Assembly: GCA_951406725.2 (NCBI GenBank)
Contig: OX597828.1
Coordinates: 29,822,001-29,886,000 of the forward strand
Reading direction: 5' to 3'
Length of the DNA stretch: 64,000 bases
DNA from: Octopus vulgaris
Taxonomy: Eukaryota
Each line of letters opens with the position of its first letter. Positions within the stretch are counted from its first letter, which is position 1. Both the position numbers and the translations under genes were made by a program. A model generated the notes under the pieces. The model ran no database searches, had not been told where the DNA came from, and saw only the letters and a program-made list of their open reading frames with translations. Positions 5,425-62,845 of the stretch are shown here, piece by piece.

Positions 5425-6609
5425 CATAGTCACTCATAATAAAAAAAAGGTGTATTGGCAGAATTTTCCAGTGAAAACCTGAATAAAATGTAAGCATAAT
5501 ATACGTGGAACTGTTGAAAACAGAATAAGATCCAATGCAACATGCAAGATTTCCCATAGGTCTTTAAGTAAAATGAAGTGAAGCATCGGAAAAAAACGCA
5601 ATGATCACCAGAAAGGAGTTGCAAAAAGGTTTGTTAGCTTCAGGGACTAGTGTTGCACTGTAAACAATCAGCAATGAACTTCATAGTAATGAACTGAAGT
5701 CACGCTCTCTTAGAAAAACTCTGCTGTTGACTAAAAGGCATAGAGATGCCCGTTTAAAATTTGTTTATGAACATAAAGATAAACCTGATACATTCTGGGT
5801 AAATGTTCTATGGACAAACGAGTCGAAAATTGAATTGTTTGGAGGAAGTTCGCGTTGCCATGTCTGGAGGAAAGATGGTACTGCCTATTCGCTGAAAAAC
5901 ACAATTCCTACCATAAAATTTGGAGGTGGTAACATCATGGTGTGTGTGTGTGTGGGTGTCTCTGCAAACGGCACTGGCAATTTACATGTGATAGAGGGTG
6001 GAATGAATGCAGAGATGTACCAAAATATTTTGAACAATAATTTATGGAACTCTGTAGAAACGCTCCAGCTTTGTGAAGGGTGGGTTTTACAATAGGATAA
6101 CGACCCTAAGCACACGGCGAAGTCTACCAAAAATTGGATTGTCGATCACAATAAAAAATTATTAGAATGGCCAAGCCAGTCACCTGACTTGAACCCCATT
6201 GAAAATTTGTGGCGTTATTTGAAAATTAAAATTCATTCAAGAGCCCCAACGTGCATTCTAGATTTGAGGAAAATTTGTCAAGAAGAATGGGAAAAAATCC
6301 TAAAGAAACATGAGATTCAGTGATTAAGAACTACAAGAAGACATTTGTTGAAGTGGAACTGAATAATGGTTATGCTACGAAGCATTAAATCAGAATTATC
6401 AGTTATTTATGTTTTGGACGAATACTTTTTTCACCCCTAAATATTTATAATTGTATATAAATTGTAACTATGATTTATTAGTTTCTTTTGCATATTCTTA
6501 GTTTATGCATATGTATGCAAATATAGTATTGGTATATCCCATTTATGTTCATTAGAAATTAGATAGATAAAGAATTTCGACATATACGAATATTTATTTT
6601 CCCCCACTG
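5425..6609 (+). mobile_element. Tc1-family DNA transposon, 5'-truncated, pseudogenised DD34E transposase
   Basis: Translations RHRDARLKF, VLWTNESKIELFG (first D mutated to N), [32 protein letters not shown], ending GYATKH* at 6388. Right end ...CCCCCACTG followed by TA at 6610-6611. No matching left TIR found. Confidence 0.92.
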
Positions 6610-8372: not shown

Positions 8373-8583
8373 AAGGTGGCGAGCTGGCAGAATCGTTAGC
8401 ACGCTGGACGAAATGCATAGCAGCATTTCGTCTGTCTTCATGTTCTGAGTTCAAATTCGTCCGAGGTCGACTTTACCGTTCATCCTTTCGGAGTCGATAA
8501 ATTAAGTACCAGTGAAACATTGGGGTTGATGAAATCGATTATCCCTCCCCCAAATTTAAGGCCTTTTGGCTATAGCAGAAAGG

Positions 8584-8585
<2 letters not shown>
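8373..8585 (+). mobile_element. SINE family A, tail type 1, followed by (TTA)n
   Basis: AAGGTGGCGAGCTGGCAGAATCGTTAGCACG...TTCATCCTTTCGGAGTCGATAAATTAAGTACCAGT...CCCTCCCCCAAATTT. Confidence 0.85.
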
Positions 8586-8670
<85 letters not shown>

Positions 8671-8678
8671 ATTATTAT

Positions 8679-10393
8679 TCAGTAGTTTTATTTTTATAGC
8701 GTGCTTTCACTTCACTACCGAGCGCAGCTCTGTGTGCCTTGGGTATGTGCTGTGATTTGTTGTGATGCTCTGATGGTTATTGTATGGAAAGTGTTCTGCG
8801 TAGGATATTTTTTTATCATGCTAATGCACCTACTATGATAGGAATTGTTTCTATTTTCAGATTCCACATTCTAGTTATCTCTATTTCCAGGTCTTTGTAT
8901 TTTGAGAGTTTGTCCATTTCTTTCGTTGTCATCTGTTTTCTGTGACCTTTTCTGGTGTGTGCCTATACCATCTTTTTTCTGTTGTTATTCCATAAATCTT
9001 TTTCTGTTGGCATAGCTTCCAATGTATGTAAGTTCCAACTCTGTCATGTCTGTGAATATATTCCTTCTTAGCCAGGACTGGGCAGCTAGAGATAATATGA
9101 TTTATTGTTTCTTGTCCATCTCCACATATTCTGCAGTTACTTGTAATATTTCTTTTCATTACATGGTTTTGGTAATTTCTGGTGGGGAGGCTTTGGTCTT
9201 GTGCTGCAATTAAAAATCCCTCTGTTTCTGCTTTGAGTCCTGAGCTTCTCAACCATTGCTGGGATTTTTCTTTGTCTATTTCTTTTGCGTTTAGTTTAGT
9301 GCAGTATTTACCATGAAGGGGCTTTTCTTTCCATCGTTTTATCATGGTTCGTTGCTGTTCTATTTTTAGTTTGGATTTCATTTGTTTTATAGCTTTTGTT
9401 GTTTCTCCATCTTCTTCTTCTTCTTCATGTTTATTAGGTGGTATGATTTCTTGTTTGTATTTGTCAGCTTCCTTAAATACTGAGAACAGTCTTTTGTTTT
9501 GCTCGTGTTTTGCTGCTATCTGGATCAGTTTTCCTTCCTTCTGAAGTAGATATTTTTGCAGTCCTATGGTGGTTATTTTATAGTAGTTTTCCAGCTGTAT
9601 AAGGCCTCTACCACCTTCTATACGTTGTATATATAGTCTTTCTATGTCAGATTTTGGGTGATGCATCCTAGATCCTGTCATTATTTTTCTTGTTTTCCTA
9701 TCTATTTTGGTCAGTTCATTTCGTGTCCAGTTAAGGATATTGTAGCTGTAACTTATAACTGGGACAGCTAAAGTGTTGATACCTATTATCTTGTTTTTAG
9801 CATTGAGCTCTGTGTTTAGTATTGATCTAACTCGTCTATAATATTCTTTTTTTATTTTCTCTTTCATTTGTGTGTGTTGTGTCTTATCTAGTTCATGGAT
9901 ACCTAAGTATTTGTAAGTTTGGCTTTGGTCTAATTCTTTTATTTCATTGGTTTTATCTAGTGTGATGTTGTTACTCTTAACTAGTTTTCCTCTTTTCATG
10001 GTTACTTTGGCGCATTTTTCTAATCCAAATTTCATATCTATTTCTTTGGTAAATCCATGAACTGTCTTTAATAGTGTTTCCAGCTGTTTGTCATTTGCAG
10101 CGTATAGTTTTAGGTCATCCATATATAAAAGGTGGCTGATCGTTTTGCCGTAACATTTATATCCGCATCCAGTTCTATTTAGCATATCAGATAGAGGTGA
10201 CAGTGCCAAGCAGAAAAGGAGTGGAGAGAGCGTGTCTCCCTGGAATATTCCTCTTCTAATGGGGATGTCTTTGGTTTTCATGAGTCCCTCTTTTGTTTGG
10301 AGGTGTAGGACTGTTTGCCATTTATTCATAGAGTGCTCTATGAATTTTATGATTGTTGGTGCTACTTTGTTAATGGCTAGTGTTTCGAGGATC
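8679..10393 (-). mobile_element. R4/Dong-type non-LTR retrotransposon, 5'-truncated, in a (TAA)n array
   Basis: ORF carries RT motifs GIFQGDTLSPLLF, HLLYMDDLKLY, FGLEKC, YKYLG and knuckle CRIC...ETINHIISSC. The 3'UTR ends ...AAAACTACTGA then (ATA)n. Microsatellite lies on both sides. Confidence 0.93.
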
Positions 10394-10395
10394 AA
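8929..10395 (-). pseudogene. Uninterrupted 488-aa RT + CCHC segment of the R4/Dong-type ORF; N-terminus and endonuclease core missing
   Basis: Supplied ORF has no internal stops. It is 5'-truncated, and a deletion near 8925 removes the LWD...PD..D region retained in the 36.8-kb copy. Confidence 0.9.
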
Positions 10396-10438
10396 ACGCC
10401 TTTTTGTAGTCGTTATTATTATTATTATTATTATTATT

Positions 10439-10527
<89 letters not shown>

Positions 10528-10531
<4 letters not shown>

Positions 10532-10855
10532 TAGTTTTATTTTTATAGCGTGCTTTCACTTCACTACCAAGCGCAGCTCTGTGTACCTTAGGTATGTGCT
10601 GTGATTTGTTGTGATGCTCTGATGGTTATTGTATGGAAAGTGTTGTGCTGTGATTTGTTGTGATGCTCTGATGGTTATTGTATGGAAAGTGCTCTGCGTA
10701 GGATGTGTGCAGTGCCTAGTAGTGCAATTTTCTGTATGTTATATGTGTTTGTAAGTCCTGGTGTTTTTGTTATGTATTTGTCTGAATATTGTTTTATCAT
10801 GCCTAATTCACCTACTATGATATGAATTGTTTCTGTTTTAAGATTCCACATTCTG

Positions 10856-10857
<2 letters not shown>
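10528..10857 (-). mobile_element. Short 3' fragment of the same R4/Dong subfamily, with a ~48-bp internal tandem duplication
   Basis: Same 3'UTR as the 8679 copy; encodes RMWNLKTETIHIIV...QKIALLGTAHILRRALSIQ; flanked by (TAA)n. Confidence 0.9.
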
Positions 10858-10899
<42 letters not shown>

Positions 10900-10980
10900 T
10901 ACTACTATTATTATTGTTTTTGTTATTATTATTATTATTATTATTACTACTATTATTATTGTTTTTGTTATTATTATTAA

Positions 10981-11047
<67 letters not shown>

Positions 11048-16622: not shown

Positions 16623-17514
16623 ATATATATATATATCTATATATCTATATATACATATATACGTATTTATTTATATATATACACATATCCATATACATGT
16701 ATATCTATGTATATACCTATATATGTATATGGCATATGTATAACACACACATGCTCACACACGCGCACATACACGTATATATATATGTGGTAGTAGCACA
16801 CGGCCACAAGCTTATAGAGAAAGGGTTACGGAGGATTGATTTAGTCCAGTTCATGACAGATAATTATTCTATCGATTCCTTAGAGCTGAATGACAAATTC
16901 AACATCGCTAGATCGGAATCCGAAATATATACGAGCAAAAGGATACGGTGTAAGGGATATAGTGATGCGCCAACTATGTGTACCAAACCACCCGTTTTGA
17001 AAAGAAGATAAATTGAAAGGTAAAACATAAAGACGTATGGGATATAGATTTATCTGCAACCGCTTCAGTTCTGTGTATTATAGTTTGCAGTATTGGAAAG
17101 ATGAATATATTACAAAATCGACCTACGCATGTGACATTTTGGAAAAAAGCAAAAACCAAGAATCACAAATATGATTTATGTCTTCAGAAAGATTGTAATC
17201 GATTCACTCATGAAGACATATGTGTATAGAGACTTATGTACAATTCTAGACAAAATTGATTCCAAATATGGGAAGAAGAATTAACCATTCAAGCAAGGGG
17301 ATAGAATTTGAAGTGAATATTTATGGTTTCTATCGACACACGAATGTCCCACACTGTATGTATGGGGAAGACGTCTAACTCATAAAGAACATGAAATTGT
17401 TTGACCAATCAGACACCATAACAAATATTCCTACTGAAAATTAATGAGTAATTGACAGATCAGATACTTGTCACTAGAACTCATTTTTGACTATGTAATA
17501 TCTTATATAATATG

Positions 17515-17713
17515 TTTTTCTACTCCAGGCACAAGGCCTGAAATGTTTGGGGAGGGGCCTGACGATTAGGTCGACCCCAGTGCGCAACTGGTACTTAATT
17601 TATCGACCTCGAAAGGACGAAAGTTAAAGATTACTTCGGCGGAATTTGAAATTAGAACGAAACACCGCTAAGCATTTCGCCCGGCGTGCTAACCTTTCTG
17701 CCTGCTCGCCGTC
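17515..17713 (-). mobile_element. SINE family A, tail type 1
   Basis: Reverse-complement match to the family A body and the GGCCTTGTGCCT tail. Confidence 0.85.
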
Positions 17714-17799
17714 TTTATTTTATATATCATGGCTTTAATGGAATCGTTCTAGGCACATATTATGGCTTTAATGGAGTCGTTCTAATTATAAATTTCTAA

Positions 17800-18401: not shown

Positions 18402-18441
18402 AGGCGCAGGAGTGGCTGTGTGGTAAGTAGCTTGCTAACCA
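18402..18441 (+). mobile_element. SINE family B 5' head, split by an insertion (continues at 20663)
   Basis: AGGCGCAGGAGTGGCTGTGTGGTAAGTAGCTTGCTAACCA; the uninterrupted copy at 34927-35377 (-) continues directly into ACCACATGGTTCCGGG. Confidence 0.92.
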
Positions 18442-19123
18442 GACATGCGCAGTTAGTCGGTTGCTTCTTGTTGAGCTAGAGTGGACGTGAGTCCAACTAA
18501 AGAAAAAAGACCAAAAACGGAAAGTTGTCGAGGTAAGTGATTTTGTTTATTGTGAGTTGGGCATAATTTATTGCGTGCCAATTATTATTTCAGTAGGTTG
18601 TGTCCAACTCTGAGACAATTTCGCCTGCGCTAGGCGGCTGCCGTTTTTGTGTTCATTGAAAAAAAAAAAAAAAAAAAACAGTGGAGGGGCGTATACTCAG
18701 GATTCAATACAGTTACTGTTAAAATTACCGTTGGCAGTAACCAGTGCTGTGTTTGAGTTTGCTGAATTTATTCCCTTGTCAGAGTACTTCGCAAGAAAAG
18801 TATAAAAATAAGCCACTATTGGATTACCTTTCGGACCCATTTTTGTGGAGGTTGTGTTGCAGTTGCGGCGTTCCAGGTTCAACCCAGGCCGGGAGTACCG
18901 CAGAATATTTTTGCTGTGTTTTTTCTGTTTATTAACTTTCTTTTGAACTTCATTTACCCCCCCCCCCCTTTTGTTTTTTCTTTATTGCGACTTTCCGTTA
19001 ATTTCTTCCCTTCTGTTGTGCTTTCTCCTTTTTGTTTTTTCAAAAATCTATCAAATTTATTTAGACTTTTGAACTTTTTTCTTCCTGCTTTTGAGTCTAA
19101 TTTGAATATATTTTTTAAAAAAC

Positions 19124-20366
19124 ATGGCAATGAAAAATAACAAAGTTTTGGAGTGGGAAATCATACCACCCAAAAAGTGGTTGAAGGACCGTGAAGATAG
19201 GACGGTGGTGTTGAGAACCTACTCCAAGGCACTTGACACCATCGCCCTATTCGAAAAAACGGCAATTGAGGAGGAGTTGGAGGAGTATTTGCCAACAATT
19301 AAATTCATTTCCAGGGGTGTCAAATATGGAACGGTGTGGTTGCTGTTTGACACCCCTGAAGAGGCTTGCAAATTTGCTAGCGAACCCTTGGAGGGTAAGG
19401 AAATCTTATTCCTGCCCACTTACAAAAAAAGAAATTAATGAAAGCTTGGATCTGCGGACTGCCACCCGACATAGAACCCGAGTGGATAGAGGAGACTATC
19501 CGCCGGGGTCTGGGTGACAGCGAAACTAAGCTCCTCAATGTAAAAGTTCTTCCTGCGGCTGCTTGGGTTGGCTCGAAAGCAGTTTTGACCCTGTGGACCC
19601 AATCAGCCAATCTGGTTTTTCCAGATTTTTTGAAAATGGCCGGGTGCAGGTACCCGGTGATGCTTGAGGGTCGCCCCCTAAGTGTCATCGGTGCTTGGAG
19701 TCCGGCCACATAAAGAAGAACTGTCCTCGGGAACAAAATAGGATCCCGGAACAGTTAAGTAAAACCCCTCTAGAAGAGGGAACGATAACGGCCGAGAAAG
19801 CAGAGGACTCCTCAAGCAGAGGCCGAAAGAGGAAGGTGAGCAACAATGGGTGCTCACCAAAGGATAATAGGGATGAGGAGAGGAGGGCGAATCTTCCAGC
19901 CACGGAGGAGACGCACCCTCCCTCAGTTGAAAAGGGAAAAAAAAAGAAAAAGAGGAAGAAAAACGGGACGTTGCCGGCTGTCAGTGTGGCACCGGAATGT
20001 CGCGGAACTACGTCGGTTGGGGTTGTGCCACCGACAAGAGAAGGAATACCGTTGGCGGAAACTGTGCCGCCAACGAAAGAACTGAATGTATTGGTCCTCT
20101 TCTATAGAGGAGGAGAAATTGAAAAAGTGATGGAAGAGCACTACAAGGGAGCACCTTTAGCATTCACACAGGACCCCGAATGGCCTCCGCAGGTAGCTGT
20201 GGAGGCCGTGGCGTTCGACGTGACGCTAGGGCTAAAGGAGCTCAATGAAGACTATAACTTGGTCCCGGGCGACGCGAACTCGGAACTTGACTACGTTCTG
20301 AGGGAGGCGTGGTTGATGGTGGAGGGCGCGGGCACAAGCTATTTCGAGGACGATATGTATTATTAG
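19124..20366 (+). CDS. L1/Tx1-type ORF1 (gag-like CCHC zinc-knuckle protein), ~414 aa, broken by two 1-nt homopolymer frameshifts
   Basis: Joins supplied ORFs 19124-19438, 19438-19713 and 19695-20366 through shifts at A7 (19424-19430) and C5 (19674-19678). Reconstructs ...KAWICGLPPDI...YPVMLEGRPPKCHRCLESGHIKKNCP (CX2CX4HX4C), then a basic KGKKKKKRKK patch. Confidence 0.75.
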
Positions 20367-20492
20367 TAATGGACTTAAGTCCAAAAATTGAAAAATTGTA
20401 AGAGGATTAATACCTCGTTTTGTATTAATAATGGACTGCTAAGCCCAAAATTGGAAAAATTGTAAGAGGTTTAATACCTCGTTTTGTGTTAA
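20367..20492 (+). repeat. Two tandem ~63-bp units in the 3'UTR of the ORF1-only element
   Basis: TAATGGACT...AAAAATTGTAAGAGGWTTAATACCTCGTTTTGTRTTAA at 20367-20428 and 20429-20492. Confidence 0.9.
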
Positions 20493-20662
20493 TCTTTTTA
20501 AAAAGAACAATGTTTTAGAGAAGCAAAAGTCGGCGGGCGCTTTCTGTCTTCTCCCATCCTTATCATCTTTCTTTCATTATCATTCACCTCATTAATGTCC
20601 TCGTCCAGACCGCAAAGCTAACTTAATCTGTGTACTGCCTTTATGGCAAATGTTTTGAAATA

Positions 20663-21048
20663 AAGTAGCTTGCTAACCAACCACATGGTTCCGGGTTCAG
20701 TCCCACTGCGTGGAATCTTGGGCAAGTGTCTTCTACTGTAGCCCCGGGCCGACCAATGCCTTGTGAGTGGATTTGGTAGACGGAAACTGAAAGAAGCCTG
20801 TCGTATATATGTACATATATATGTGTATGTGTGTTTGTGTGTCTGTGTTTGTCCCCCCAACATCGCTTGACAACCGATGCTGGTGTGTTTACGTCCCCGT
20901 CATTTAGCGGTTCGGCAAAAGAGTCCGATAGAATAAGTACTGGGCTTACAAAAGAATAAGTCCCGGGGTCGAATTGCTCGACTAAAGGCGGTGCTCCAGC
21001 ATGGCCGCAGTCAAATGACTGAAACAAGTAAAAGAGTAAATGAGTAAA
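20663..21048 (+). mobile_element. SINE family B, remainder of the split copy
   Basis: CCACATGGTTCCGGGTTCAGTCCCACTGCG...CTTGGGCAAGTGTC (CORE-like)...GAAACAAGTAAAAGAGTAAA. Confidence 0.92.
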
Positions 21049-21863: not shown

Positions 21864-22040
21864 TATTTCTTTACTACCCACAAGGGGCTAAACACAGAGG
21901 GGAAAAACAAGGACAGACAAACGGTTTAAATCGATTACATCGACCCCAGTGCGTAAGTGGTACTTAATTTATCGACCCCGAAAGGATGAAAGGTAAAGTC
22001 GACCTCGGCGGAATTTGAACTCAGAACGTAACGGCAGACG
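21864..22040 (-). mobile_element. SINE family A, tail type 2, 5'-truncated
   Basis: Minus strand: CGTCTGCCGTTACGTTCTGAG...CCCCTCTGTGTTTAGCCCCTTGTGGGTAGTAAAGAAATA. Confidence 0.85.
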
Positions 22041-28700: not shown

Positions 28701-29240
28701 TGTTGAGTGTGCCATGACATCGATGATTACCATCTTGAAGATATTCTGCATTTATATCAAAGCAACATATCTTCATATATTAACTTGCAAACACCTCGAA
28801 GTGTTCAAATTCCCGTTTTTCTTTAGCATCACTTCCACTTTTCTGTAAATTTAATCTCAATGATAAAACGTCTTGAAAATATTCAAACGAGAAATTATCG
28901 TGTCTACATGCATTTGGCAAATGCGTTAAGTAATAAAATTTCATCTTGCGATAAAGTGAAATTCTATCACATCTTATTAAAAAAAAGGATATGAAAAAAA
29001 AAAAAGGTTAAAAACTTTAATAAATATATATGTATATTTATATTCATCTTCTTATTCACAGTATTTGATAATGTAACTATGGAATTTATACATTCCTATG
29101 CCTCTCAAATGGAATATTGGAAATACTTATTCACTGGGTTAGTTTATAAATGTGCGCCAGTGTGTGCGCATTTATATACGTATATATATATGCACACACA
29201 CAAACACACATACACGCACACACACATATATATATATAAA

Positions 29241-29460
29241 GGCGGCGAGCTGGCAGAAACGTTAGCACGCTGGGAGAAATGCGTAGCTGTATTTCGTCTG
29301 CCGTTACGTTCTGAGTTCAAATTCGGGCGAGGTCGACTATACCTTTCATCCTTTCGGGGTCGATAAATTAAGTACCAGTTACGCACTGGGGTCGACGTAA
29401 TCCGTGTGTCTGTCCTTATTTGTCCCCTCTGTGTGTAGCCCCTTGTGGGTAGTAAAGAAA
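29241..29460 (+). mobile_element. SINE family A, tail type 2
   Basis: Full head and body, tail GTCCCCTCTGTGTGTAGCCCCTTGTGGGTAGTAAAGAAA. Confidence 0.88.
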
Positions 29461-29478
29461 TATATATATATATATATG

Positions 29479-29512
<34 letters not shown>

Positions 29513-30989
29513 CATATATATATACACGAATATATATATGTATATGTACATATGTATGCGTGTGTAGATATATATGCGTGTGTTTGTGTGTGTATGTGAG
29601 TTGTGTCTATGTGTGTATGTGCGTGTCTTTATGTATCAACTTCCCAGTTCAGATGTATTTGAAACACATTCTATCACTTAATAAGGCAATATCCTGCATT
29701 TTGTCATGTAGAAATATTCTCACTGTTGACAAAACGGTGTAAATACACCAGATCGATTCTACGCGCACCATCTCTCCAGAACGCTGGATACATTCTTGTT
29801 TACAGCGAGACCTTTTCCCAGTCACGAAATGCAGGGAATGTCCTTCTTGTGTGTTCGAGTATGTATCAAACATATTCGAAGTTTTACTTTTCTCTATAAA
29901 TCATTCTTTAGCTCTTGCAGTCTGCGTTTTGCTACAGCCACGCAGCTGTTTAGCGCCAGAAGTCAAACTATTTTCATTGGGTTCTAACACGAGGGACATT
30001 GTCTCTTAATCAATTCGGAGTTGCACCCCCTTTTCCAGTTGTGATGGTGATGAGAAGATAACTACTTCGAAAGAAATGTATGCATCCATCAATCTATACG
30101 TAAGACGCTTGGAACTGATATGATGAGTTTATATGGTTTTGCCGAGAGCGAGAATATTTCTCTATGACAAACTGCAATGATAACCTTCTTTGGGTTCCAA
30201 TATGCCTAAAACATACTTGAATTGACAACAAGTTTATATAAATCATTGCTTAACGCTTCTAATCCGTATATCTATGTTTATCTTTAAATATACATATATT
30301 TATGTAAATATTTTGGTCTATTTTTACAAATATGTGTGTGCGTGTGTGTGTTTTGTGTATACATATAAATATATATCTTTTCGTCTCTCTCTCTCTCTCT
30401 CTCTGTATATATATATATATATATATATTAATACGCATATATTCATGCAAACATATTTACGCATATTTCTACACACACACATACACACGCACACACACAT
30501 ACATATATAAACATACGAAGATGATTATCTACAAAGTCCCGTGTATTTGCCCACCTACCCATAGTTTTGTGTGAGTACGTAACTCTGCATGCATGTAAGC
30601 GTTCATACATAGATTTGCCTAATCTAGTCATTTATATATACACCCGCATACAACACTGTCCAGCGTAGCCTTTCGCTTCAGTATTTCAAATAGGGAAAGG
30701 TTTTCGAATTCTTTTCGCTCTGCAGTTATAATGCTATTAACCATGCATTCTACTTCATCTCTGACTTAATTACTGTAATTACCTTCCCGCAGATTTCAAC
30801 CACTAAGCTGAACAGGTGTACCCAGTCATGGAAACACGGAGAAATACGAAGGAATGTTGCAGCTCTCATTGGCAACCTAAAGGATATAAATTCCAAATCA
30901 TTTAAATAATTGCAGTTTGTTTCAACTAAACTTTATCAAATTCAATAATCTATCAAGAGAAAATATTAAATAAGCTTAAGCTATTAATA

Positions 30990-31371
30990 TTGATTTGAAA
31001 TTTTGACATAAGGCCAGCAACTTAGGTGGGAGGCAGTAAGTCGATTATATCGACCCAAGTACTCAACTGGTACTTATTGTATCGACATCGAAAACATGAA
31101 AAGCGATGTCGCAAAGCATTTTGCCCGGCGTGCTAACGGTTTTGCCAGATCATCGCCCTGCATAAGCTATTAATATCGGTTTCAAATTTTGCAGAAGACA
31201 AATAATTTTTTTGGTGGTGGTGGTGGTGGTGGGGGGGGGAATCGATTATATCGACACCATTACACAACTGGTACTTATTTTATCGATCCTGAAAGAATAA
31301 ATGTAAGGATTTGAACAGAGAATGTAAAGACGGACGGCATGCCGCTAAGCTGTTTGCTCGGCGTGTTAACG
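30990..31371 (-). mobile_element. Two adjacent old SINE family A copies
   Basis: Each shows TCGATTATATCGAC...CAACTGGTACTTATT...GGCGTGYTAACG. Confidence 0.7.
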
Positions 31372-31942
31372 ATGTGGGCTAATGCCGATCACCTGTCGTC
31401 CAGCGAAGGAAGAGTAAGGCTATCGACTGTGTGAATTATAAAAATTGACCCACCGGAAGTTTTAACAAACAAAGGTAAAAATTGTTTTCTCAATGTTGTA
31501 GCAATAGCGAAAGAGGCAGTATGGAAGACTAGGATTAAAGGGATTTAGACTGGCAACTTTATCCCCGGCCACGATTTACGATCATTTTTTTACTTCTCAT
31601 TTGAAAAGGAAAGTGTGGCTGGAGAAGAGTTGTCTATCGGAGAGTATGTTCAAAAAGAGATGGAAGCATGTTGCACGAGTGCTGTGCGTGCAAGGAACCG
31701 TGTGAATAGGCTATAAAAGAAAAACAAGAAAAGGTACCAGCGATAGATCGGGGCTTGTGGGGTCAGAGCATGGCCTGATCATCGCCCCATTTGTGTTGTT
31801 TCTGGATTGTTAATTTCATTCGATTATTTTTCAATATTTTATATAATTTTTATATTCATGTTTTATGTAAAATCATAACGTATTATTGATCCCAATCAGT
31901 TGTTCCATTTCTGTATTTGGCCCCCTGTGGGCAATTAAGAAA
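31372..31942 (+). mobile_element. L1/Tx1-clade LINE 3' fragment (ORF2 C-terminus and 3'UTR)
   Basis: Translation with stops and a frameshift: FLNVVAIAKEAVWKTRIKG...HLKRKVWLEKSCLSESMFKKRW*, fitting the L1/Tx1 ORF2 end pattern AKxxIWxxR...FxxRW. T-rich 3'UTR ends GGCCCCCTGTGGGCAATTAAGAAA. Confidence 0.7.
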
Positions 31943-31965
31943 TTGGCATTTCGTCTGCCGTTCGA

Positions 31966-33450: not shown

Positions 33451-33668
33451 AGGCGAAAAGATGGCAGAAACGTTAGCACGCCGGTCGAAATGTTTAGCGG
33501 TATTTCGTCTGTCTTTACGTTGTGAGTTCAAATTCCGCCGGGGTCGACTTTGTCTTTCATCCTATCAGGGTCGATAAATTAAGTACCAGTTGCGTACTGG
33601 GGTCTATCTAATCGATAGGCCCCCTCCCCCAAAATTTCGGGCCTTGTGCCTAGAGTACAAAAGAATAT
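33451..33668 (+). mobile_element. SINE family A, tail type 1
   Basis: Body as above; tail CCCTCCCCCAAAATTTCGGGCCTTGTGCCTAGAGTA. Confidence 0.88.
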
Positions 33669-35454: not shown

Positions 35455-35548
35455 ATAAAGGGTGGAATATAATTAATTTAATAAAATTAATCAATTTCAC
35501 CTAGTAGATTTATCGGTATGGAAAAGACCATATTTGGTAAGGGTTATA

Positions 35549-35762
35549 ATAATTATAATTAAGGGTTAAATGCAACAAGTTGCTCAAAACCACATACCGA
35601 AAATATTAGAAATAGCAGCCAAAATTGATCACCATTTCCTCTACTAGTAAAAAGTCTCCACAAACAAACAGAATTTGTAAGCTGTATATGGCAAAAAAGG
35701 CAGAAAATAACGAAATCCCAGCCTTGAGCAACTTGTTGCATTTAACCCTTAATTATAATTAT
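35549..35762. repeat. Perfect 39-bp inverted repeat enclosing 136 bp
   Basis: ATAATTATAATTAAGGGTTAAATGCAACAAGTTGCTCAA (35549-35587) and its exact reverse complement (35724-35762). Confidence 0.85.
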
Positions 35763-36358
35763 ATATATATATATATATCAATTAAAACAGTTATTGTTTC
35801 TTGTCAGAAAGAAAAAGATTAATAGGACTGCCATAGAAGTGCTCTATTGAAAGAGACAAATATATATTAAACTAAGGTTAAAGAGCAAACAAATGCAATG
35901 TCATCCGCATAACATTTCATAATTCGAGCATTTAATCATAGAATATACATATAAACATCCCGCGTAATTTTTCGTAAATTTTTGTGTAAATAAGCTTAAA
36001 CCACGCATTTCCTGTTAGTTTTACTTGTACTGAATAATATGGGAATTGTTGAATTTATTTTCCATTTTGGAGGAGGGGGTTACATGATAATGGTTAGGAA
36101 CGGAGAAGGCCTCTGGTTAATTTTCACAATAATGTGGCGAGCGTGTTTGCATGTGTTGTGAGAATGATGGAAAAAGTAAAGTTATAAATACATCATTTCA
36201 TTTGGAAGACAGAAATAAATTTGAACGACTATCACTCTGTTATAATCCAACAATTTTTCAGTTATTTATAGGTTTTATTTGTTGCTTTTATTCCCCATGG
36301 CTTTGGATAAATTTCGGAGAAATGTTTTATCGTCCACAAATGGTAAAAGGTATTTTCC

Positions 36359-36604: not shown

Positions 36605-37703
36605 TACTTTTTTTTTTCTTCTTTCAAATTTGCTTCAATTTCTTGCCGAGTGTCTTCCCGACTCCTAGGGCAAAGAAACTCATAGCATACATTGGTAGGC
36701 CATTAAACCAAACTCAGTAGTTCGTTCATTTTTTAATTTAAAAAAATTTTTTTTTTTAAGTTAAATTAAAATACATGAGCAGCAACAGTTCTCACATCGA
36801 CAATGCTCTTCTCAATACGTGTGATGTACCAGTTAAGACAATCTTTTGCACTTCTTGCAGGGATGGTAAGCCAGGGATCATTCTCATATAATTTTCGGTT
36901 CCCTTCTTGATCATTCCTAGTGCTCCTACGATCACTGGTATTGTAACCGCCTTGAGATGCCACATTTTCTCAATTTCAATGAGTAGGTCTTTATATTTTC
37001 TGAGCTTGTCAAACTCTTTCGCTGAGATATTATGATCACAGGGGATGCTCATGTCGATCAATAAGCAAACTTTATTGTTTTGGTCTTTCACAACAATATC
37101 TGGTTTATTGGCCTTGATGGTTCGGTCTGTATGTACTGGAAAGTCCCACAGAATGGTTACATTTTCTCCTTCAGTTACAGCCTCAGTGTGGTGATTATAC
37201 CACTTGTCGGCAGTTTTGATATTGTAATGCCGACTTATTAGCCAGTGGAGATATTGGCCAACTCTGTCATGTCTTAATTTATACTCCACTGGTGCCAAGA
37301 CTTTACATCCAGAGATTAGGTGGTCCACTGTTTCAATCATGTCGTTGCAGAATCGGCATTTTGGGTCTGCTCCATTCTTCATCACATTGGCCTGGTAGTT
37401 CCGGGTTAATAGGCTTTGATCTTGAGAAGCCAGGATGAAACCTTCGCTCTCTGCTTTTAGCCCTGAGCTCCGTAGCCACTGATGGGTTTGCTTCTGGTCA
37501 ATATCAGCTTGTTTGCTGCGGATCACATATTTGCCGTGCAGAGGTTACTCCTCCCACCTATCAGCCAATTGCTCGTGCGCTTTCTTCATTGCCATCATTT
37601 TCACCTTCTTTGCAACAATAGTTGCCGTACTTCCCTCGGGTTGTTCAGTTTGGGTATCCTGCACGAGATCAATAGCAAATTTTTTGCTTTCCTTTATGAT
37701 AGA
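36605..37703 (-). mobile_element. R4/Dong-type LINE 3' portion with CCHC and restriction-like endonuclease, in (TAA)n
   Basis: ORF 36792-37526: CRFC...ETVDHLISGC, RHD, ILWD, ANKPDIVVKD...LLIDMSIP...KLRKYKDL, IPVIVGALG. The frame extends upstream past one stop. Both flanks are (TAA)n. Confidence 0.93.
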
Positions 37704-46883: not shown

Positions 46884-47805
46884 ATATTGCCACAATTGGC
46901 CTAGACACCTACCTGAAAAATCTGAGTACTGGATGTTAAAACTTGTCTCAAAACATGAAAACAAGAAAGCATCATACTCTGTAACAAAACAGGCAAAGGG
47001 ATATCTAAGTGAATTCCAAATACAACAAATTCCAGAATTAGACATACGAGAAACAAGCGCAGAAAAAGCTAAGCGCGTGAAAACCCGTGCTAAAATTGCT
47101 GCCTTAGATATTCTGACTGATAAATGACAAGAAAAGCCTCTCAATAGCAAATACCTAAAGAGAGCGAATAATGCCGATGTTGACAATGCCCTGAGCCATC
47201 AATGGCTAATGGACTCTGGCTTAAAATCTGAAACAAAAGGGTTTATCTTAGGAGCTCAAGATCAATGCCTACCTACAAGGAACTACCAGGCCAACATATT
47301 AAAGAACCGCAGTAGATCAAAATGTCATATACGTCAACAACAATATGAAACCATTGATCATGTTGTCTCCAAATGCAGTCTTCTTGCGCCTACAGTGTAT
47401 CTCAACAGGCATGATAGAGCTGCACAATATATTCACTGGGTAATTTGCAAAACTCTGGATTTGCCCCATGATAAAAACTGATAAAACACAAACCACCTCC
47501 ACTGCTTGAAAATGAACACATCTCACTCCTCTGGAACTTCACCATTCAAACTGACAGAAAGATAGATGCGAATAGGCTAGATATCATATTGAAAGACTTC
47601 AGACAAAAATCACGCCTCCTCAATGAAATGGCTGTCCCAATCAATATAAACGTATCTGTCAAGACCTCCCAAAAACTGAGCAAATATAAAGATCTTGAAA
47701 TAGAGATTAACAAAATGTGGAACCTGAAGACTAAAACAATACCTGTTGTCATAGCAAAAGGGGCTGATTGCTACCTAGCTCAGATACCAGGAAACCCCCA
47801 AATGC
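46884..47805 (+). mobile_element. R4/Dong-type LINE fragment (another subfamily) after (AAT)n
   Basis: One frame with stops: HQWLMDSGLKSETKGFILGAQDQCLPTRNY...RHDRAAQYIHW...LSKYKDLEIEINKMWNLKTKTIPVVI. Confidence 0.9.
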
Positions 47806-48099
47806 GGACAGCTGACACTTTCTATCATACCCAGCAAAATAAGCTGTGAGACTTCATATAATAATAATATAAATAATAACAACAGCAACAACAACAACAA
47901 AAACAACAATAATAATGATAATAATATTCAGAGTTAGTCACAAAGCACAAAAATGCTGCCACAAGAGCGACACTGACAGGCTATACCTAACTATGTGAAA
48001 TGTGTTAATCAGCTGTGAAATTTGTATATTCTCAGAAGAAAATAGTTTAGGGTGATATATCAATACTGCTATAGGACACTGCTGGGTAGGGAGAGATAT

Positions 48100-50511: not shown

Positions 50512-50987
50512 TACGCACACATAAGTGTACACATTTACTTTGTATATAAACTGTAGAACTGAAGACAACGCTTCTAACCGTTCATCGTATGTCGATCCTG
50601 TACTACATTCTGGCGTGAAGTACACTTTCTTTCCTTCATTACGGAACACAGGAAGAGATCCAGTCAAACACACGCTCACACATATAAAAATACATACACA
50701 CACAAATACACATATACGTTAAGACTTAAGGATGGAGACGGAGACAGACAGAGTGACAAACATCTAGCTACTCCCTGAGATGATGGCCAACCATATTTGT
50801 TGAAAATTGTTCATGACACTTAGCTTTGGCTGGCCATTCCCACTCGTTGTCATGATGAGAGTACTTCTGCAAAGAAGTTATTGATAGTACGATCACACTT
50901 TGAATGCATGATTTGAAGCTTTAATCAATCTTTAAGTTTTAGTCGGAAGAAATATGTAAACTCGCCTATATGATTTTTAGGTGCTTG

Positions 50988-51200
50988 AAGGCGGCGAGCT
51001 GGCAGAAACGTTTGCCCGTCGGGCGAAAAGCGTAGCTGTATTTCGTCTGCCGTTACGTTCTGAGTTCAAATTCCGCCGAGGTCGACTTTACCTTTCATCC
51101 TTTCGGGGTCGATAAATTAAGTACCAGTTACGCACTGGGGTCGTTTGTCTGTCCTTGTTTGTCCCCTCTATGTTTAGCCCCTTGTGGGTAGTAAAAAAAT
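50988..51200 (+). mobile_element. SINE family A, tail type 2
   Basis: Tail GTCCCCTCTATGTTTAGCCCCTTGTGGGTAGTAAAAAAAT. Confidence 0.88.
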
Positions 51201-52091
51201 ATATATGATATTTAGGTGCTGTTAGTAAAATGTAAGCTTCTCTCTTGGTGAATTCCATCTTTTCGCGTAACAACTTTTCGTGACTGCATGTAATATAACA
51301 CTAGCATTATTTTAACTTATCTAATTCTGCTTATACTTACACAATACATCGCGCTGATGTCAACTATTGTTCTAGGTTCTGTTCCTTCTTTCTATGTTCT
51401 TCACATGAAGATATGTTTGTTTACAGATTTTCAGCTGTTTTTTGAACAAATCAGTCAGTTTCAGTCGCCAGTTCTCATTTATTAATCAACAACCGAACAA
51501 CTAACCGTCAAGGTTTATTAACGCGTTGCGTGTTAGCTATCATCATTATACTACAAGTGTAGCCATATTTAAATGATCTCCGAATTCTGTCTTATTTACG
51601 GATTAAATCTGATTGCTCTCAGTAATGTTTGATTGCAAGAGGTCGAGAATAAACCTTTCGTGTTTGATTGCTAAAAATGAAAACAGATAGTTCAGGTTTC
51701 ACATGCAGTAAGACCGAGAGAATGTGACGCACTGTGCCGTACATATTGCACACACGTTTGTTATAATCAGCGAACAATAACATATGTGGAAGGAAGCGTA
51801 ACATCCGATACTTCACACAGGAAATTTTCTCACGTCAGCCCCCTTGCTTCAAGCTATTTCTAGAAATTAGTTCTGACAATATTTTCACTCTGTTCTTGGT
51901 ACATGTTCACAAAATCTTTTTCGGTTCTTTTCTGACGATGCTATTTCATCTCGATTACAGATGGAGGGGCTTTTCTCTCACGGTCATTAGGCTATGCGCT
52001 TATTTCTTCTTCTTCTTCTTCTTCTTCTTCTTCTTCTTCTTCTTCTTCTTCTTCTTCTTCTTCTTCTTCTTCTTCTCCTCTTCTTCTTCTT

Positions 52092-52574: not shown

Positions 52575-52967
52575 TTCGGTAGTTTTATTTTTATAGCGTG
52601 CTTTCACTTCACTACCGAGCACAGCTCTGTGTGCCTTGGGTATGTGCTGTGATTTGTTGTGATGCTCTGATGGTTATTGTATGGAAAGTGTTCTGCGTAG
52701 GATGTGTGCAGTGCCTAGTAGTGCAATTTTCTGTATGTTATATGTGTTTGTAAGTCCTGGTGTTTTTGTTATGTATTTGTCTGAATATTTTTTTATCATG
52801 CCTAATGCACCTACTATGATAGGAATTGTTTCTGTTTTCAGATTCCACATTCTAGTTACCTCTATTTCCAGGTCTTTGTATTTTGAGAGTTTCTCCATTT
52901 CTTTTAGAGACACGTTGTCATCAGCCGGTATTGATACATCAATTAGAAAGCATTTTTTCTTCTTCAT
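52575..52967 (-). mobile_element. R4/Dong-type 3' end, same subfamily as the 8679 copy
   Basis: ORF 52674-52967 CFLIDVSIPADDNVSLKEMEKLSKYKDLEIE...AHILRRTLSIQ; near-identical 3'UTR. Confidence 0.92.
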
Positions 52968-52975
52968 TATTATTC

Positions 52976-53008
<33 letters not shown>

Positions 53009-53016
53009 GTTGTTAC

Positions 53017-53053
<37 letters not shown>

Positions 53054-53578
53054 GAATGAGTGAGAGAGCAGCGCATGCCATCACAGTGATACTGGAGTAA
53101 AATATAAGTAGCCCAGTATAGGTATCATGACTACCCGTCTGATAAGGGTGCACCAGGCACATGCATCACAACCACATGAGCGCGACGTGATGATCTAACA
53201 CCAAGATAAACAGCACACGACCATACATTTGGGGGTCCACTTAGAGTTTTCTACTGCTCGAGTAGCCCATCCCACTCAAAAGGTCCCTGAATGAGGGTTG
53301 TTTAAGTATGTTGGACAAAACACCCATGTTTCCAAAGGTGAATTATCCAAACCCCAAAGAATTCCTCTTAACACATGCTTATGATGCTCCCCGGCTACTT
53401 CTGCCCGTGGTCAGGGATGCGCATATCGTCAACTACTAAATGTCATGCTCAACTGGTTAAGGTCAAACAACTGACAAGCAAATCTGTGGTATTGAGCAGA
53501 ATATTTGCTGTAGCCCATCTTGTATACCAAGACAGAACAATATACATGATAACACCTCCAATCATTTAAGATCAGAAG
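53054..53578 (-). mobile_element. Non-coding interspersed repeat ending in (AAT)n (second copy at 61757-62020)
   Basis: 53054-53320 is the reverse complement of 61757-62020 (e.g. CCCTTATCAGACGGGTA, GATGGCATGC, TGCTCTCTCACTCA). Confidence 0.75.
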
Positions 53579-61756: not shown

Positions 61757-62020
61757 GTTTGTTCAACATCCTTAAACAACACTTATTCAGGGACCTTTTG
61801 AGTGGGATGGGCTACTCGACCTGAACAAAATTCTAACTGGGCCCCCACCTGCAAGGTTATGCGCTGTTTATCTTGATATAAGATCACCATGTCGCGTAAC
61901 ATATGTTTGTGATGCATGTGCCTGCTGTACCCTTATCAGACGGGTATTCATGATGGGTATACTGGGCTTCGTACATTTTACCCCAGTGTCACTTTGATGG
62001 CATGCACTGCTCTCTCACTC
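61757..62020 (+). mobile_element. Second, shorter copy of the (AAT)n-tailed non-coding repeat
   Basis: Matches 53054-53320; followed by AATAATAATAAT. Confidence 0.75.
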
Positions 62021-62033
62021 AATAATAATAATA

Positions 62034-62845
62034 GCAACATAGATTTGGTCTCTGAGGACAACACCAGCAGAATTATATTTATGTCTAATAATTCCAAGAT
62101 TAAGAATTCTATATACCAACGTAAAATGTCCTCCGGTACCGAAATCTATTTCTGTATTGGCGCTTCATCTTCTAAGTTATCTAAGAGAATTTCCAATCAT
62201 TATTCTTCATTTAGGGATAGCAGTAAACGCAATAGCACAAGGCTTAATAAATTGGTTTGGTATCTTAAAGACAGCAATAAAGATTTTATGTTAGATTGGT
62301 TCATCCTGCCCATCTTTTTCGCTTATGATAAGGGCAATGGATTCTATAACATTTGTAACTCTGAACTCTGAACTCCATATTCTCTTCTCTAAGAATCACC
62401 TGGTTAACACACTTATAGAGTGATCTTACAAATGTAAGCACTGGCAGAAACACACCTTTATCTGATATAAGTGAACATTTAGTTCACCTTGCACTTTACT
62501 TCAAAAGATCAATCTACTTCCAAACCTCTGAACATTTTTTAAACCAACATATCCCTCTATATTTCTCCTTTATTTGTTCTCTACTTATTTCTTTACCACT
62601 TCTTTTTCTATGGACTGCCTTTGACGTCGGATCTACTAACAGTTATTTTTTAAAATACTTAATAACGTTCTGTTTTTCATTTATGCAGTCATCAAAATTG
62701 TTGTAATGTCTTGTTGTCGAGATGGGTTCTCTTTCTTTCCCGATGCGAAGATTACATTATTTTACACCGTTTATACCTTTGTCTTCGAAACATATGTCGA
62801 AAGTAAAGGAATTTGCATATTTGTGTTCAACTTCATTTATTTACT
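62034..62845 (+). mobile_element. Penelope-like element 3' fragment: decayed GIY-YIG endonuclease plus terminal repeat
   Basis: SIYQ...FCIGASSSKLSKRISNHYSSFR...NSTRLNKLVWYLKD...DWFIL...NICNSE...CKH fits the Penelope-type GIY-YIG C-terminus. Degenerate hammerhead at 62728-62810. Confidence 0.8.

What the first reader, a model, noticed from the sequence alone, without database searches (positions are those of the whole stretch)
31905..31945. Shared 3'-terminal stem-loop links a Tx1-like LINE, a SINE tail and the ORF1-only element
Seen: LINE end TCTGTATTTG-GCCC-CCTGT-GGGC-AATTAAGAAA (31.9 kb); SINE A type-2 tail TCTGTGTTTA-GCCC-CTTGT-GGGT-AGTAAAGAAATA (21.9, 29.4, 51.2 kb); ORF1-only end TCTGTGTAC-TGCC-TTTAT-GGCA-AATGTTTTGAAATA (20.6 kb). 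All have TCTGT, a 4-bp stem with a 5-nt loop, then GAAA. Known: many LINE/SINE pairs share a 3' stem-loop recognised by the LINE RT. Inference: a three-member system (autonomous LINE, half-LINE, SINE) using related Tx1 machinery. The LINE-SINE match is strong; the match to the ORF1-only element is weaker.
Basis: partly seen in the sequence, partly recalled or inferred. Interest (0 to 1): 0.72.

Follow-up and report, generated by a model that had tools for sequence, protein, structure and literature searches.

The report
Octopus jumping genes share one tail
A young short repeat in an octopus-type genome ends in nearly the same 35 bases and small hairpin as a broken L1-type retrotransposon, which suggests that it borrowed that element's copying enzyme, a pairing rarely reported for L1-type elements in animals.

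Summary
The LINE-SINE link is real. The last 34-35 nt of a dead, 5'-truncated L1-clade ORF2 fragment (31.37-31.94 kb) match the type-2 tail of SINE A at 28 of 34 positions, ungapped and ending together (E 8.7e-5; best other site in the window 23 of 35). The three type-2 copies form one young subfamily, and one has a 19-bp target duplication around head and tail, so they are not independent LINE insertions. The ORF1-only element (18442-20662, 17-bp duplication, RRM/CCHC-like ORF1, no ORF2) is not similar by sequence. It does end in the same layout (TCTGT, 4-bp/5-nt hairpin, GAAATA, no poly(A)), found at no other window site under an end-anchored, partly post-hoc test. Hairpin function is unshown: there is no covariation and folding is no better than shuffles. 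The LINE end rests on one copy without a target duplication that abuts SINE debris. Tx1 versus L1 could not be settled. Two additions: older SINE A tails carry the same CTTGT loop, and the 24 nt before the LINE-like part resemble SINE B. Verdict: a likely SINE/L1-clade tail pair, with a plausible half-LINE third member.

The parts
31372..31716 (+). C-terminal ~115 codons of an L1-clade (APE-RT-zf) ORF2, 5'-truncated and dead: stops at 31432 and 31546, frameshift in the T-run near 31585-31591; the end of the ORF is approximate
   Evidence: 48 hits, best E 2e-16; tblastn P0057 31363-31713 E 4e-15; Argonauta P0061 E 5e-12
31717..31909 (+). T-rich 3' UTR of the LINE fragment (inferred from position); no AATAAA, no other match in the window
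31910..31943 (+). LINE 3'-terminal motif: TCTGT, stem 31920-31923/31929-31932, loop CCTGT, GAAAT; no poly(A), no target duplication found
31944..31962 (+). Short SINE A head fragment (15 of 15 to the type-2 variant) directly after the LINE end, followed by a truncated SINE B on the minus strand
50986..51201 (+). SINE A type-2 copy with head and tail: head/body, SINE B-like segment 51143-51166, LINE-like tail 51167-51201; 19-bp target duplication (1 mismatch) at 50967-50985 / 51202-51220
29237..29462 (+). SINE A type-2 copy with head and tail inside a (TA)n tract; tail motif 29428-29462
21864..22040 (-). 5'-truncated SINE A type-2 copy; tail motif 21898-21864; no target duplication found
18442..20662 (+). 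ORF1-only (half-LINE-like) element, 2221 bp, between perfect 17-bp target duplications 18425-18441 / 20663-20679, inserted in a SINE B head
19124..20366 (+). ORF1 in three frames (shifts in an A-run near 19424-19435 and a C-run near 19677): RRM-like region, CCHC knuckle, long tail; 72% and 80% identical to Octopus sinensis LOC115225585 over two stretches
   Evidence: (zf-CCHC E 0.0037, below the curated cut-off)
20627..20662 (+). ORF1-only 3'-terminal motif: TCTGT, stem-loop 20636-20648 (loop TTTAT), GAAATA
17509..17716 (-). Example of an older SINE A type-1 copy; tail hairpin 17539-17527 with the same CTTGT loop (others start at 8374+, 33451+, 46627-, 49451-, 31157-)
20833..20856 (+). Internal SINE B segment matching the 24 nt that precede the LINE-like part of the type-2 tail (21 of 24; also 35139- 21 of 24, 43972+ 19 of 24)

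Best explanation
A tRNA-type SINE of an octopod genome (SINE A) gave rise once to a younger subfamily whose 3' end was replaced, probably by template switching, with a 24-nt SINE B-like piece plus the last ~35 nt of an L1-clade (Tx1-like) LINE. That LINE lineage ends in a short hairpin with a pyrimidine-rich 5-nt loop and GAAAT(A) rather than poly(A). Its ORF2 protein most likely binds this end, nicks the target and primes reverse transcription, so the SINE rides on it and leaves 17-19-bp target duplications. The ORF1-only element is an internally deleted relative (half-LINE) of the same broad lineage, probably of a sister family, which kept the same terminal layout with a different stem sequence. 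Shown: the L1-clade identity of the LINE piece, the tail match, the subfamily structure, the target duplications and the lack of ORF2 in the 2.2-kb element. Inferred: that the 35 nt are the LINE family's own terminus, hairpin recognition, trans-mobilisation, and common machinery for the half-LINE (about 0.45 on its own).
For: Tail match 28 of 34, ungapped, ending together. The match sits about 200 nt after the end of an L1-clade ORF2, behind a T-rich UTR. Type-2 bodies are 94-99% alike against 67-82% among five type-1 copies, and type-2 tails are 52-54 of 57 alike. A target duplication brackets head and tail in the 51-kb copy. The two elements with clear duplications (17 and 19 bp) both end in RAAATA without poly(A). 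The SINE B-like segment stops exactly where the LINE match starts. Full-length relatives have APE + RVT_1 + zf-RVT, and their best solved match is L1 ORF2p (E 2e-53, against 4e-24 for R2). ORF1 look-alikes are CCHC and ZCCHC3-type RRM clusters (scores 0.92-0.88), the ORF1 type fused to one ORF2 relative (P0168). Stem pairing probability in context is 0.75-0.88 for the LINE and 0.72-0.86 for the ORF1-only end. Stem-loop recognition by ORF2 is established for L2-clade LINEs (PMC4176376, abstract and discussion).
Against: There is one LINE copy, without a target duplication, lying between SINE A fragments, so its true terminus is not defined. The match is short and 82% identical, and it does not extend convincingly upstream (4 of 11 columns constant). 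No compensatory change was seen; folding is no better than shuffles; stem probability in the SINE copies is only 0.11-0.12 and 0.53-0.56. The ORF1-only end fails sequence and covariance-model tests, and its whole UTR does not match the LINE UTR (p 0.2). Older type-1 tails carry a CTTGT-loop hairpin too, so the loop need not come from this LINE. Two of three type-2 copies have no clean target duplication.
Confidence: 0.62

Rival explanations
1. The 35 nt at 31910-31943 are not the LINE's own end but a worn, 5'-truncated SINE A type-2 tail that landed behind a LINE fragment in a nest of SINE pieces. The SINE's partner is then some other LINE.
For: The LINE fragment is flanked by SINE A on both sides, and a 15-of-15 type-2-like head piece follows at once. 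No target duplication brackets the LINE. There is only one LINE copy.
Against: The match stops where the SINE B-like segment begins, with no linker or body in front. It differs from the type-2 tails at 6-7 of 34 positions while those differ from each other at 3-5 of 57. It lies at a normal 3' UTR distance from ORF2. An independent L1-type element with a duplication-defined end has the same layout.
Confidence: 0.16
2. The hairpin with a CTTGT-like loop is an older, shared signal. Type-1 and type-2 tails are two versions of one ancestral tail, or tails of two sister LINE families, and the LINE at 31.9 kb is a cousin of the true partner. The SINE then switched between related partners rather than capturing this exact LINE's end.
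For: Type-1 tails show a stem with a CTTGT loop and a similar CCCCTC...AGTA-AAA frame. The LINE loop (CCTGT) and ORF1-only loop (TTTAT) differ from the SINE loop by 1 and 2 bases. In L2 LINEs the loop carries the specificity (PMC4176376 discussion). O. vulgaris has 80 L1-Tx1 and 60 L1 families (PMC13282606 supplement).
Against: Type-1 tails are not significantly similar to type-2 tails or to the LINE end (p 0.13-0.89 for the ten pairs tested; neither profile finds the other), whereas type-2 and LINE are. Two type-1 copies run into trinucleotide repeats, unlike type 2.
Confidence: 0.14
3. The tail is of L1-clade origin but is a passenger. The LINE is of the relaxed type and primes on the terminal A/T bases by microhomology with AT-rich targets; the hairpin plays no part, and the ORF1-only layout is convergence or chance.
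For: The hairpin is weak and shows no covariation. A 4-bp/5-nt hairpin alone occurs near 15-19% of arbitrary ends. One copy sits in (TA)n and another's target starts TATAT. L1-clade LINEs are mostly relaxed (PMC3472496 part 1).
Against: None of the five ends has poly(A), which relaxed L1s need. All five keep four pairable positions with a 5-nt loop, and the ORF1-only stem differs at two pairs on both sides if aligned on the loop (one sequence). The full layout is absent elsewhere in the window under the anchored test.
Confidence: 0.15
4. The LINE-SINE match is chance similarity between T/G-rich short sequences.
For: The match is short (34 nt) and was found by eye in a low-complexity window.
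Against: E 8.7e-5 in a leave-out profile search, above all 200 block-shuffled windows, and both ends coincide.
Confidence: 0.02

Closest known systems
Maize ZmSINE2/ZmSINE3 with LINE1-1_ZM, and Chlamydomonas SINEX-3_CR with L1-1_CR (PMC3472496, PMC3747384)
   Same: A tRNA-type SINE shares a short 3' end with an L1-clade LINE; in the monocot case ~45-50 nt with a hairpin whose stem varies.
   Different: Those are green plants, end in poly(A) (stated for the algal pair) and show compensatory changes in the monocot case. Here it is an animal, a 4-bp stem, no poly(A), and no covariation shown. [quoted passage not shown]
Crocodilian SINEU with Tx1-Mar (PMC4494074)
   Same: A SINE is thought to be moved by Tx1-clade LINEs, with insertion into other repeats and ~10-16-bp duplications.
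   Different: There the link rests on shared target preference and 5' heads; no LINE sharing the SINEU-1 3' end was found, and SINEU has poly(A) and snRNA heads. Here the link is a shared tail.
HAL1 (half-L1), HeT-A, Ag-Sponge: ORF1-encoding non-autonomous LINEs (as summarised in PMC5786205)
   Same: 5' UTR + ORF1 + 3' end, no ORF2, bracketed by a target duplication.
   Different: HAL1 ORF1 is of the mammalian L1 type (recalled); this ORF1 looks RRM + CCHC. Family status and parent LINE are unknown, with one copy in the window.
Stringent L2/CR1 pairs (ZfL2-1/ZfL2-2, bivalve BivaV/BivaCORE SINEs; PMC4176376, PMC4824008) and tail exchange in SINE superfamilies
   Same: Stem-loop tails shared with the partner LINE; SINEs survive by swapping tails.
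   Different: A different LINE clade; those end in short tandem repeats, and the L2 case has experimental support.
Octopus tRNA-derived SINEs OK, OR1, OR2 (Ohshima and Okada 1994; seen only as a citation; OR1/OR2 named as CORE-SINEs in PMC4824008 and PMC4758252)
   Same: Abundant tRNA-type SINEs of octopus; SINE A and SINE B probably correspond to these families (recalled, not tested).

Membership tests
L1 clade in the wide sense (L1/Tx1) non-LTR retrotransposon | ORF2 with APE endonuclease, RT and C-terminal zinc motif | tested here: met
   Met through relatives: the window piece matches the C-termini of P0057 and P0061, which carry Exo_endo_phos, RVT_1 and zf-RVT. The window itself holds only the last ~115 codons.
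L1 clade in the wide sense (L1/Tx1) non-LTR retrotransposon | RT closer to L1 than to other clades | tested here: met
   P0061 against PDB: L1 ORF2p E 2e-53, R2 proteins E 4e-24 or weaker, 11 sequences matched. Few clades have solved structures.
Tx1 clade | RT phylogeny groups with named Tx1 families (Tx1L, Keno, Kibi, Koshi) | not testable with these tools
   No hit carried a Tx1 name. A FastTree of 39 rows places the nearest full-length relatives in a 4-member clade with two Argonauta proteins, sister to 12 unnamed ENA/JGI proteins, without named references.
Tx1 clade | ORF1 with RRM domains and CCHC knuckles (feature recalled) | tested here: inconclusive
   The LINE's own ORF1 is absent. 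Two ORF2 relatives are fused to CCHC ORF1s (P0168 with ZCCHC3-type RRMs, P0237). The ORF1-only protein resembles such proteins, but its link to this LINE is not shown.
Tx1 clade | Target-sequence preference for repeats | tested here: inconclusive
   The ORF1-only copy sits in a SINE B head and the LINE end abuts a SINE A head piece: one case each. The three type-2 SINE targets share no clear sequence beyond AT richness.
tRNA-derived SINE | Pol III head with A and B boxes | tested here: inconclusive
   A- and B-box-like strings seen by eye against a recalled consensus. ARAGORN 0 genes and Rfam 0 hits at gathering score.
tRNA-derived SINE | Short, dispersed, non-coding repeat with target duplications and no internal T4 terminator | tested here: met
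   11 copies aligned, about 220 bp; 19-bp duplication in 1 of 3 type-2 copies; no T4 run in 2 of 3.
Stringent-type SINE/LINE pair | SINE 3' end homologous to the LINE 3' end | tested here: met
   28 of 34, E 8.7e-5, ends coincide; one LINE copy only.
Stringent-type SINE/LINE pair | Conserved stem-loop with compensatory changes | tested here: inconclusive
   16 of 16 cells pair, one one-sided change, no two-sided change in 4 sequences; too few and too alike to show covariation.
Stringent-type SINE/LINE pair | Tail required for mobilisation by the cognate ORF2 | not testable with these tools
   Needs a retrotransposition assay.
Half-LINE (HAL1-like ORF1-only element) | ORF1 present, ORF2 absent, inserted as a unit | tested here: met
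   Perfect 17-bp duplication. No ORF2 hit in 18442-20662 by tblastn with two full-length ORF2 relatives or by the C-terminal profile; 296 nt lie between the ORF1 stop and the end.
Half-LINE (HAL1-like ORF1-only element) | A multi-copy family, not a single deleted copy | not testable with these tools
   One copy in the window. Two O. sinensis proteins are related, but their DNA context is not available.
Half-LINE (HAL1-like ORF1-only element) | 3' end homologous to the parent LINE | tested here: inconclusive
   No sequence significance against the LINE in this window; shared layout only. The parent may be another family.
MetaSINE | 66-bp Meta central domain after the tRNA head | tested here: inconclusive
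   By eye, SINE A's body does not resemble the BivaMeta/BivaMD alignments in the supplement of PMC4824008 (part 1 of 4). No alignment was run; not filed there.

The most novel reading that the evidence does not exclude
Octopods carry an animal L1/Tx1 lineage that is stringent and poly(A)-independent: its ORF2 reads a TCTGT-hairpin-GAAATA end. One such signal supports a three-tier system of autonomous LINE, ORF1-only half-LINE and a major SINE subfamily built from pieces of two SINEs and the LINE. The older SINE tail is the signal of a sister family with the same loop.
Probability: 0.3. Interest if true: 0.7.

Novelty: new variant of a known kind. Interest (0 to 1): 0.5.

Why it matters
SINE/LINE tail sharing is textbook, but the L1 clade is the stated exception: 3 SINEs with L1 tails among 58 pairs, all in green plants (PMC3472496, PMC3747384). 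The one Tx1-SINE link that I read rests on targets, not tails (PMC4494074). Whether ancestral L1-clade elements were stringent or relaxed is posed as an open question in those papers. An animal L1/Tx1 element with a shared hairpin tail and no poly(A) would bear on it and give a short, mutable RNA signal to test. It would also name a driver for one SINE expansion in octopus, where SINEs are 11.7% of the O. vulgaris assembly and mostly unclassified (PMC13282606). I found no report of this pair in 10 literature searches. Repbase, Dfam, SINEBase sequences and subscription papers were not searchable, so it may already be noted there.

Tried and rejected
Word-indexed protein search with the LINE piece: 0 hits among 24 candidates; the exhaustive search then found 48, 3 of which (P0006, P0039, P0049) matched through several short stretches and were not used. 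Pfam on 148 of 203 complex window ORFs, with those at 31.3-31.76 kb left out, and the ORF2 profile scan found no second L1-clade fragment. Covariance model R1 missed the ORF1-only and type-1 ends. The type-1 tail profile found only its 5 input copies at significant E and no LINE partner; two of its weak hits look like older SINE A copies. Two extra descriptor hits (24824+, 35672-) were set aside: the second lies inside an inverted-repeat element, and neither passes the end-anchored test. Single-sequence AlphaFold of the ORF1 relative gave pLDDT 38 and was not used. A careful tree did not finish; the FastTree lacks named clade references. ARAGORN and Rfam found nothing. A motif search of papers gave 5 unrelated hits. 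The bacterial, phage and plasmid collections were not used, as they cannot hold these elements. No eukaryotic DNA collection was open, so no genome-wide consensus could be built. The language-model look-up of the LINE's ORF2 piece stayed unchecked.

Full report
Setting. The window is repeat-rich animal DNA. Its ORF1-like protein has named relatives only in Octopus sinensis (2 hits among 106 candidates), and the LINE fragment's only named relatives among 10 clusters looked up are from Argonauta hians, so it is an octopod-type genome. It holds two SINE families (A, about 220 bp, 11 copies aligned; B, about 400 bp), Dong/R4-like LINE pieces and a Tc1 fragment.

Observation. The LINE and ORF1-only strings are exact at 31910-31942 and 20627-20662. 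The SINE string is exact for the minus-strand copy at 21898-21864. The 29.4-kb copy has one change before the stem, and the 51.2-kb copy lacks both TCTGT and GAAA. All five ends can form a 4-bp stem with a 5-nt loop (CCTGT, CTTGT x3, TTTAT), and none has a poly(A) tail.

LINE versus SINE. The LINE end matches the type-2 tail at 28 of 34 positions without gaps, and both end at the same base. Local scores beat all 2000 shuffles for each of the three tails. A profile built from the SINE tails alone finds the LINE end at E 8.7e-5 and nothing else below E 2.9. The ungapped score is 28 of 35, against 23 of 35 for the next site in the window and at most 25 in 200 locally shuffled windows. Five type-1 tails and two SINE B tails served as controls and did not match the LINE (p 0.13-0.93).

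What the LINE is. 31372-31716 encodes the broken C-terminus of an ORF2, with stops at 31432 and 31546 and a frameshift near 31590. An exhaustive protein search gave 48 hits. Cluster mates include full-length proteins of 1096 aa (Argonauta) and 1111 aa with APE endonuclease, RT and zf-RVT, which match back to 31363-31713 at E 4e-15 and to part of it at 5e-12. Their best solved relative is L1 ORF2p. So the element is L1-clade in the wide sense. No hit was named Tx1 and no named reference was at hand; the tree (39 rows, FastTree) shows only an Argonauta-containing clade. 'Tx1-like' is consistent with the data but untested. The copy is dead, 5'-truncated at a junction with an old minus-strand SINE A, has no target duplication, and is followed by a 19-nt SINE A head piece and a truncated SINE B. 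This is the main weakness: the LINE family's real end is inferred from one copy.

What the type-2 SINE is. The three copies are 94-99% alike in the body, while five type-1 copies are 67-82% alike; the type-2 tails agree at 52-54 of 57 positions. The 51-kb copy has a 19-bp duplication with one mismatch around head and tail; the 29-kb copy sits in (TA)n; the 22-kb copy is 5'-truncated with no duplication. Small deletions differ at the body-tail border, but the tail is one sequence. The 24 nt directly in front of the LINE-like 35 nt match an internal segment of SINE B (21, 21 and 19 of 24 in three copies; best other site 17; at most 20 in 200 shuffles). The segment is GT-rich, so I treat this as probable, not certain. 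It makes the subfamily a three-part composite.

What the ORF1-only element is. A perfect 17-bp duplication defines a 2221-bp insertion (18442-20662) in the head of a SINE B. It has a 682-nt leader, one ORF broken by two homopolymer frameshifts (these may be assembly errors) and a 296-nt 3' UTR with a 62-nt tandem duplication. The ORF is 72% and 80% identical to O. sinensis LOC115225585 over two stretches. It has a weak zf-CCHC match. No ORF2 remnant was found. This fits an ORF1-encoding non-autonomous LINE like HAL1 (PMC5786205, passages). Its end is not similar in sequence to the LINE or SINE. The layout is shared: TCTGT 36 nt from the end (35 in the SINE), hairpin, terminal GAAATA. Each added feature is met by 0.3-0.6% of arbitrary ends, and the combination by 0 of 20,000 shuffles. 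I set the spacing ranges knowing this end, so the true odds are weaker, but a coincidence at a duplication-defined terminus is unlikely. Aligned on the loop, two of four stem pairs differ on both sides from the LINE, which is compensatory if the ends are homologous.

The hairpin. It is weak. None of the five 60-nt ends folds better than shuffles. In longer context the stem forms with probability 0.75-0.88 (LINE), 0.72-0.86 (ORF1-only), 0.53-0.56 and 0.11-0.12 (two SINE copies). Among LINE and SINE tails there is one one-sided change and no two-sided change. Older type-1 tails also carry a stem with a CTTGT loop (clear in 2 of 6 copies, worn in the rest), though they are not significantly similar to type 2. 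The loop may therefore be an older signal of sister LINE families.

Mechanism. Most likely the L1-clade ORF2 binds a terminal hairpin-plus-GAAATA signal, as L2-clade ORF2 binds stem and loop (PMC4176376, abstract and discussion read). It then primes at a nick and copies any RNA that carries the signal. SINE A gained the signal by a tail swap, the route proposed for SINE superfamilies in PMC4824008 (passages). The half-LINE kept a related signal after losing ORF2. Confidence is 0.62 for the SINE part and about 0.45 for the half-LINE sharing machinery. Rivals are a stray SINE tail behind the LINE (0.16), a passenger tail with relaxed priming (0.15), cousin partners with an older shared loop (0.14), and chance (0.02).

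Comparison with what is known. PMC3472496 (part 1 of 3 and Table S1 part 1 of 2 read) and PMC3747384 (passages) count 3 SINEs with L1 tails among 58 pairs, in maize/sorghum and Chlamydomonas. PMC4494074 (parts 1-4 of 5 read) links SINEU to Tx1 by target choice and found no LINE sharing the SINEU-1 tail. PMC13282606 (part 1 of 3, passages and supplement) lists L1-Tx1 and many unclassified SINE families in O. vulgaris; the words 'partner' and 'tail' do not occur in its main text. Passages of PMC4758252, PMC10294476, PMC3531059, PMC9223172 and PMC8967140 gave no such pair. Ohshima and Okada 1994 and Bao and Jurka 2010 were seen only as citations. Repbase and Dfam were not searchable.

Verdict. 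The core observation is real and points to a SINE/L1-clade tail pair in an animal, with a plausible half-LINE as third member. It is a variant of a known kind of system, supported by one LINE copy and no structural proof. Interest 0.5.

Noticed in passing
window 8374-8587 (+), 33451-33668 (+), 17716-17509 (-), 46633-46413 (-), 49451-49250 (-), 31157-30990 (-): Older SINE A copies with the type-1 tail; a hairpin with a CTTGT loop (worn in some) lies at the same place as in type 2. No partner LINE was found in the window.
   Followed up: partly
window 51143-51166, 29404-29427, 21922-21899 vs SINE B 20833-20856, 35139 (-), 43972 (+): The 24 nt before the LINE-like tail match an internal SINE B segment (21 of 24), suggesting a three-part composite SINE.
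   Followed up: partly
window 18425-18441 / 20663-20679 and 31944-31962: The ORF1-only element sits inside a SINE B head and the LINE end abuts a SINE A head fragment: a possible preference for tRNA-like heads as targets, one case each.
   Followed up: partly
window 22040 (-) and 31944-31962 (+): Two SINE A pieces begin at nearly the same internal position (about 51-58 of the element), which may be a truncation or insertion hot spot.
   Followed up: no
window SINE A body vs SINE B about 20900-20990: SINE A and SINE B share a weakly similar internal stretch (p about 0.012), perhaps a common central domain. SINE B has its own different tail.
   Followed up: partly
window 8932-10527 (-), 36795-37544 (-), 47128-47846 (+), and shorter pieces near 10675-11046 and 52663-53055: Several RT/zf-RVT LINE pieces embedded in (TAA)n arrays, Dong/R4-like by recall; identical 3' ends at 8668-8710 (-) and 10518-10560 (-).
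   Followed up: partly
window 5664-6320 (+): Broken Tc1/mariner transposase (HTH_Tnp_Tc3_2 E 9e-8, DDE_3 E 1e-10).
   Followed up: no
window 35545-35767: Small element with 44-bp terminal inverted repeats (98% complementary), MITE-like.
   Followed up: no
window 20361-20493: 62-nt tandem duplication (89%) starting at the ORF1 stop in the ORF1-only 3' UTR.
   Followed up: no
window about 20070-20363 (+): The ORF1-only protein has a ~100-aa non-repetitive C-terminal stretch without a Pfam match that is absent from the shorter O. sinensis model.
   Followed up: no
window 30960-31371 (-): Two old SINE A copies in tandem, with a ~28-nt near-duplication around the second, directly upstream of the LINE fragment.
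   Followed up: no
window 61913-62368 (+): 152-aa frame without a Pfam match that by eye resembles a Penelope GIY-YIG end (recalled motif).
   Followed up: no
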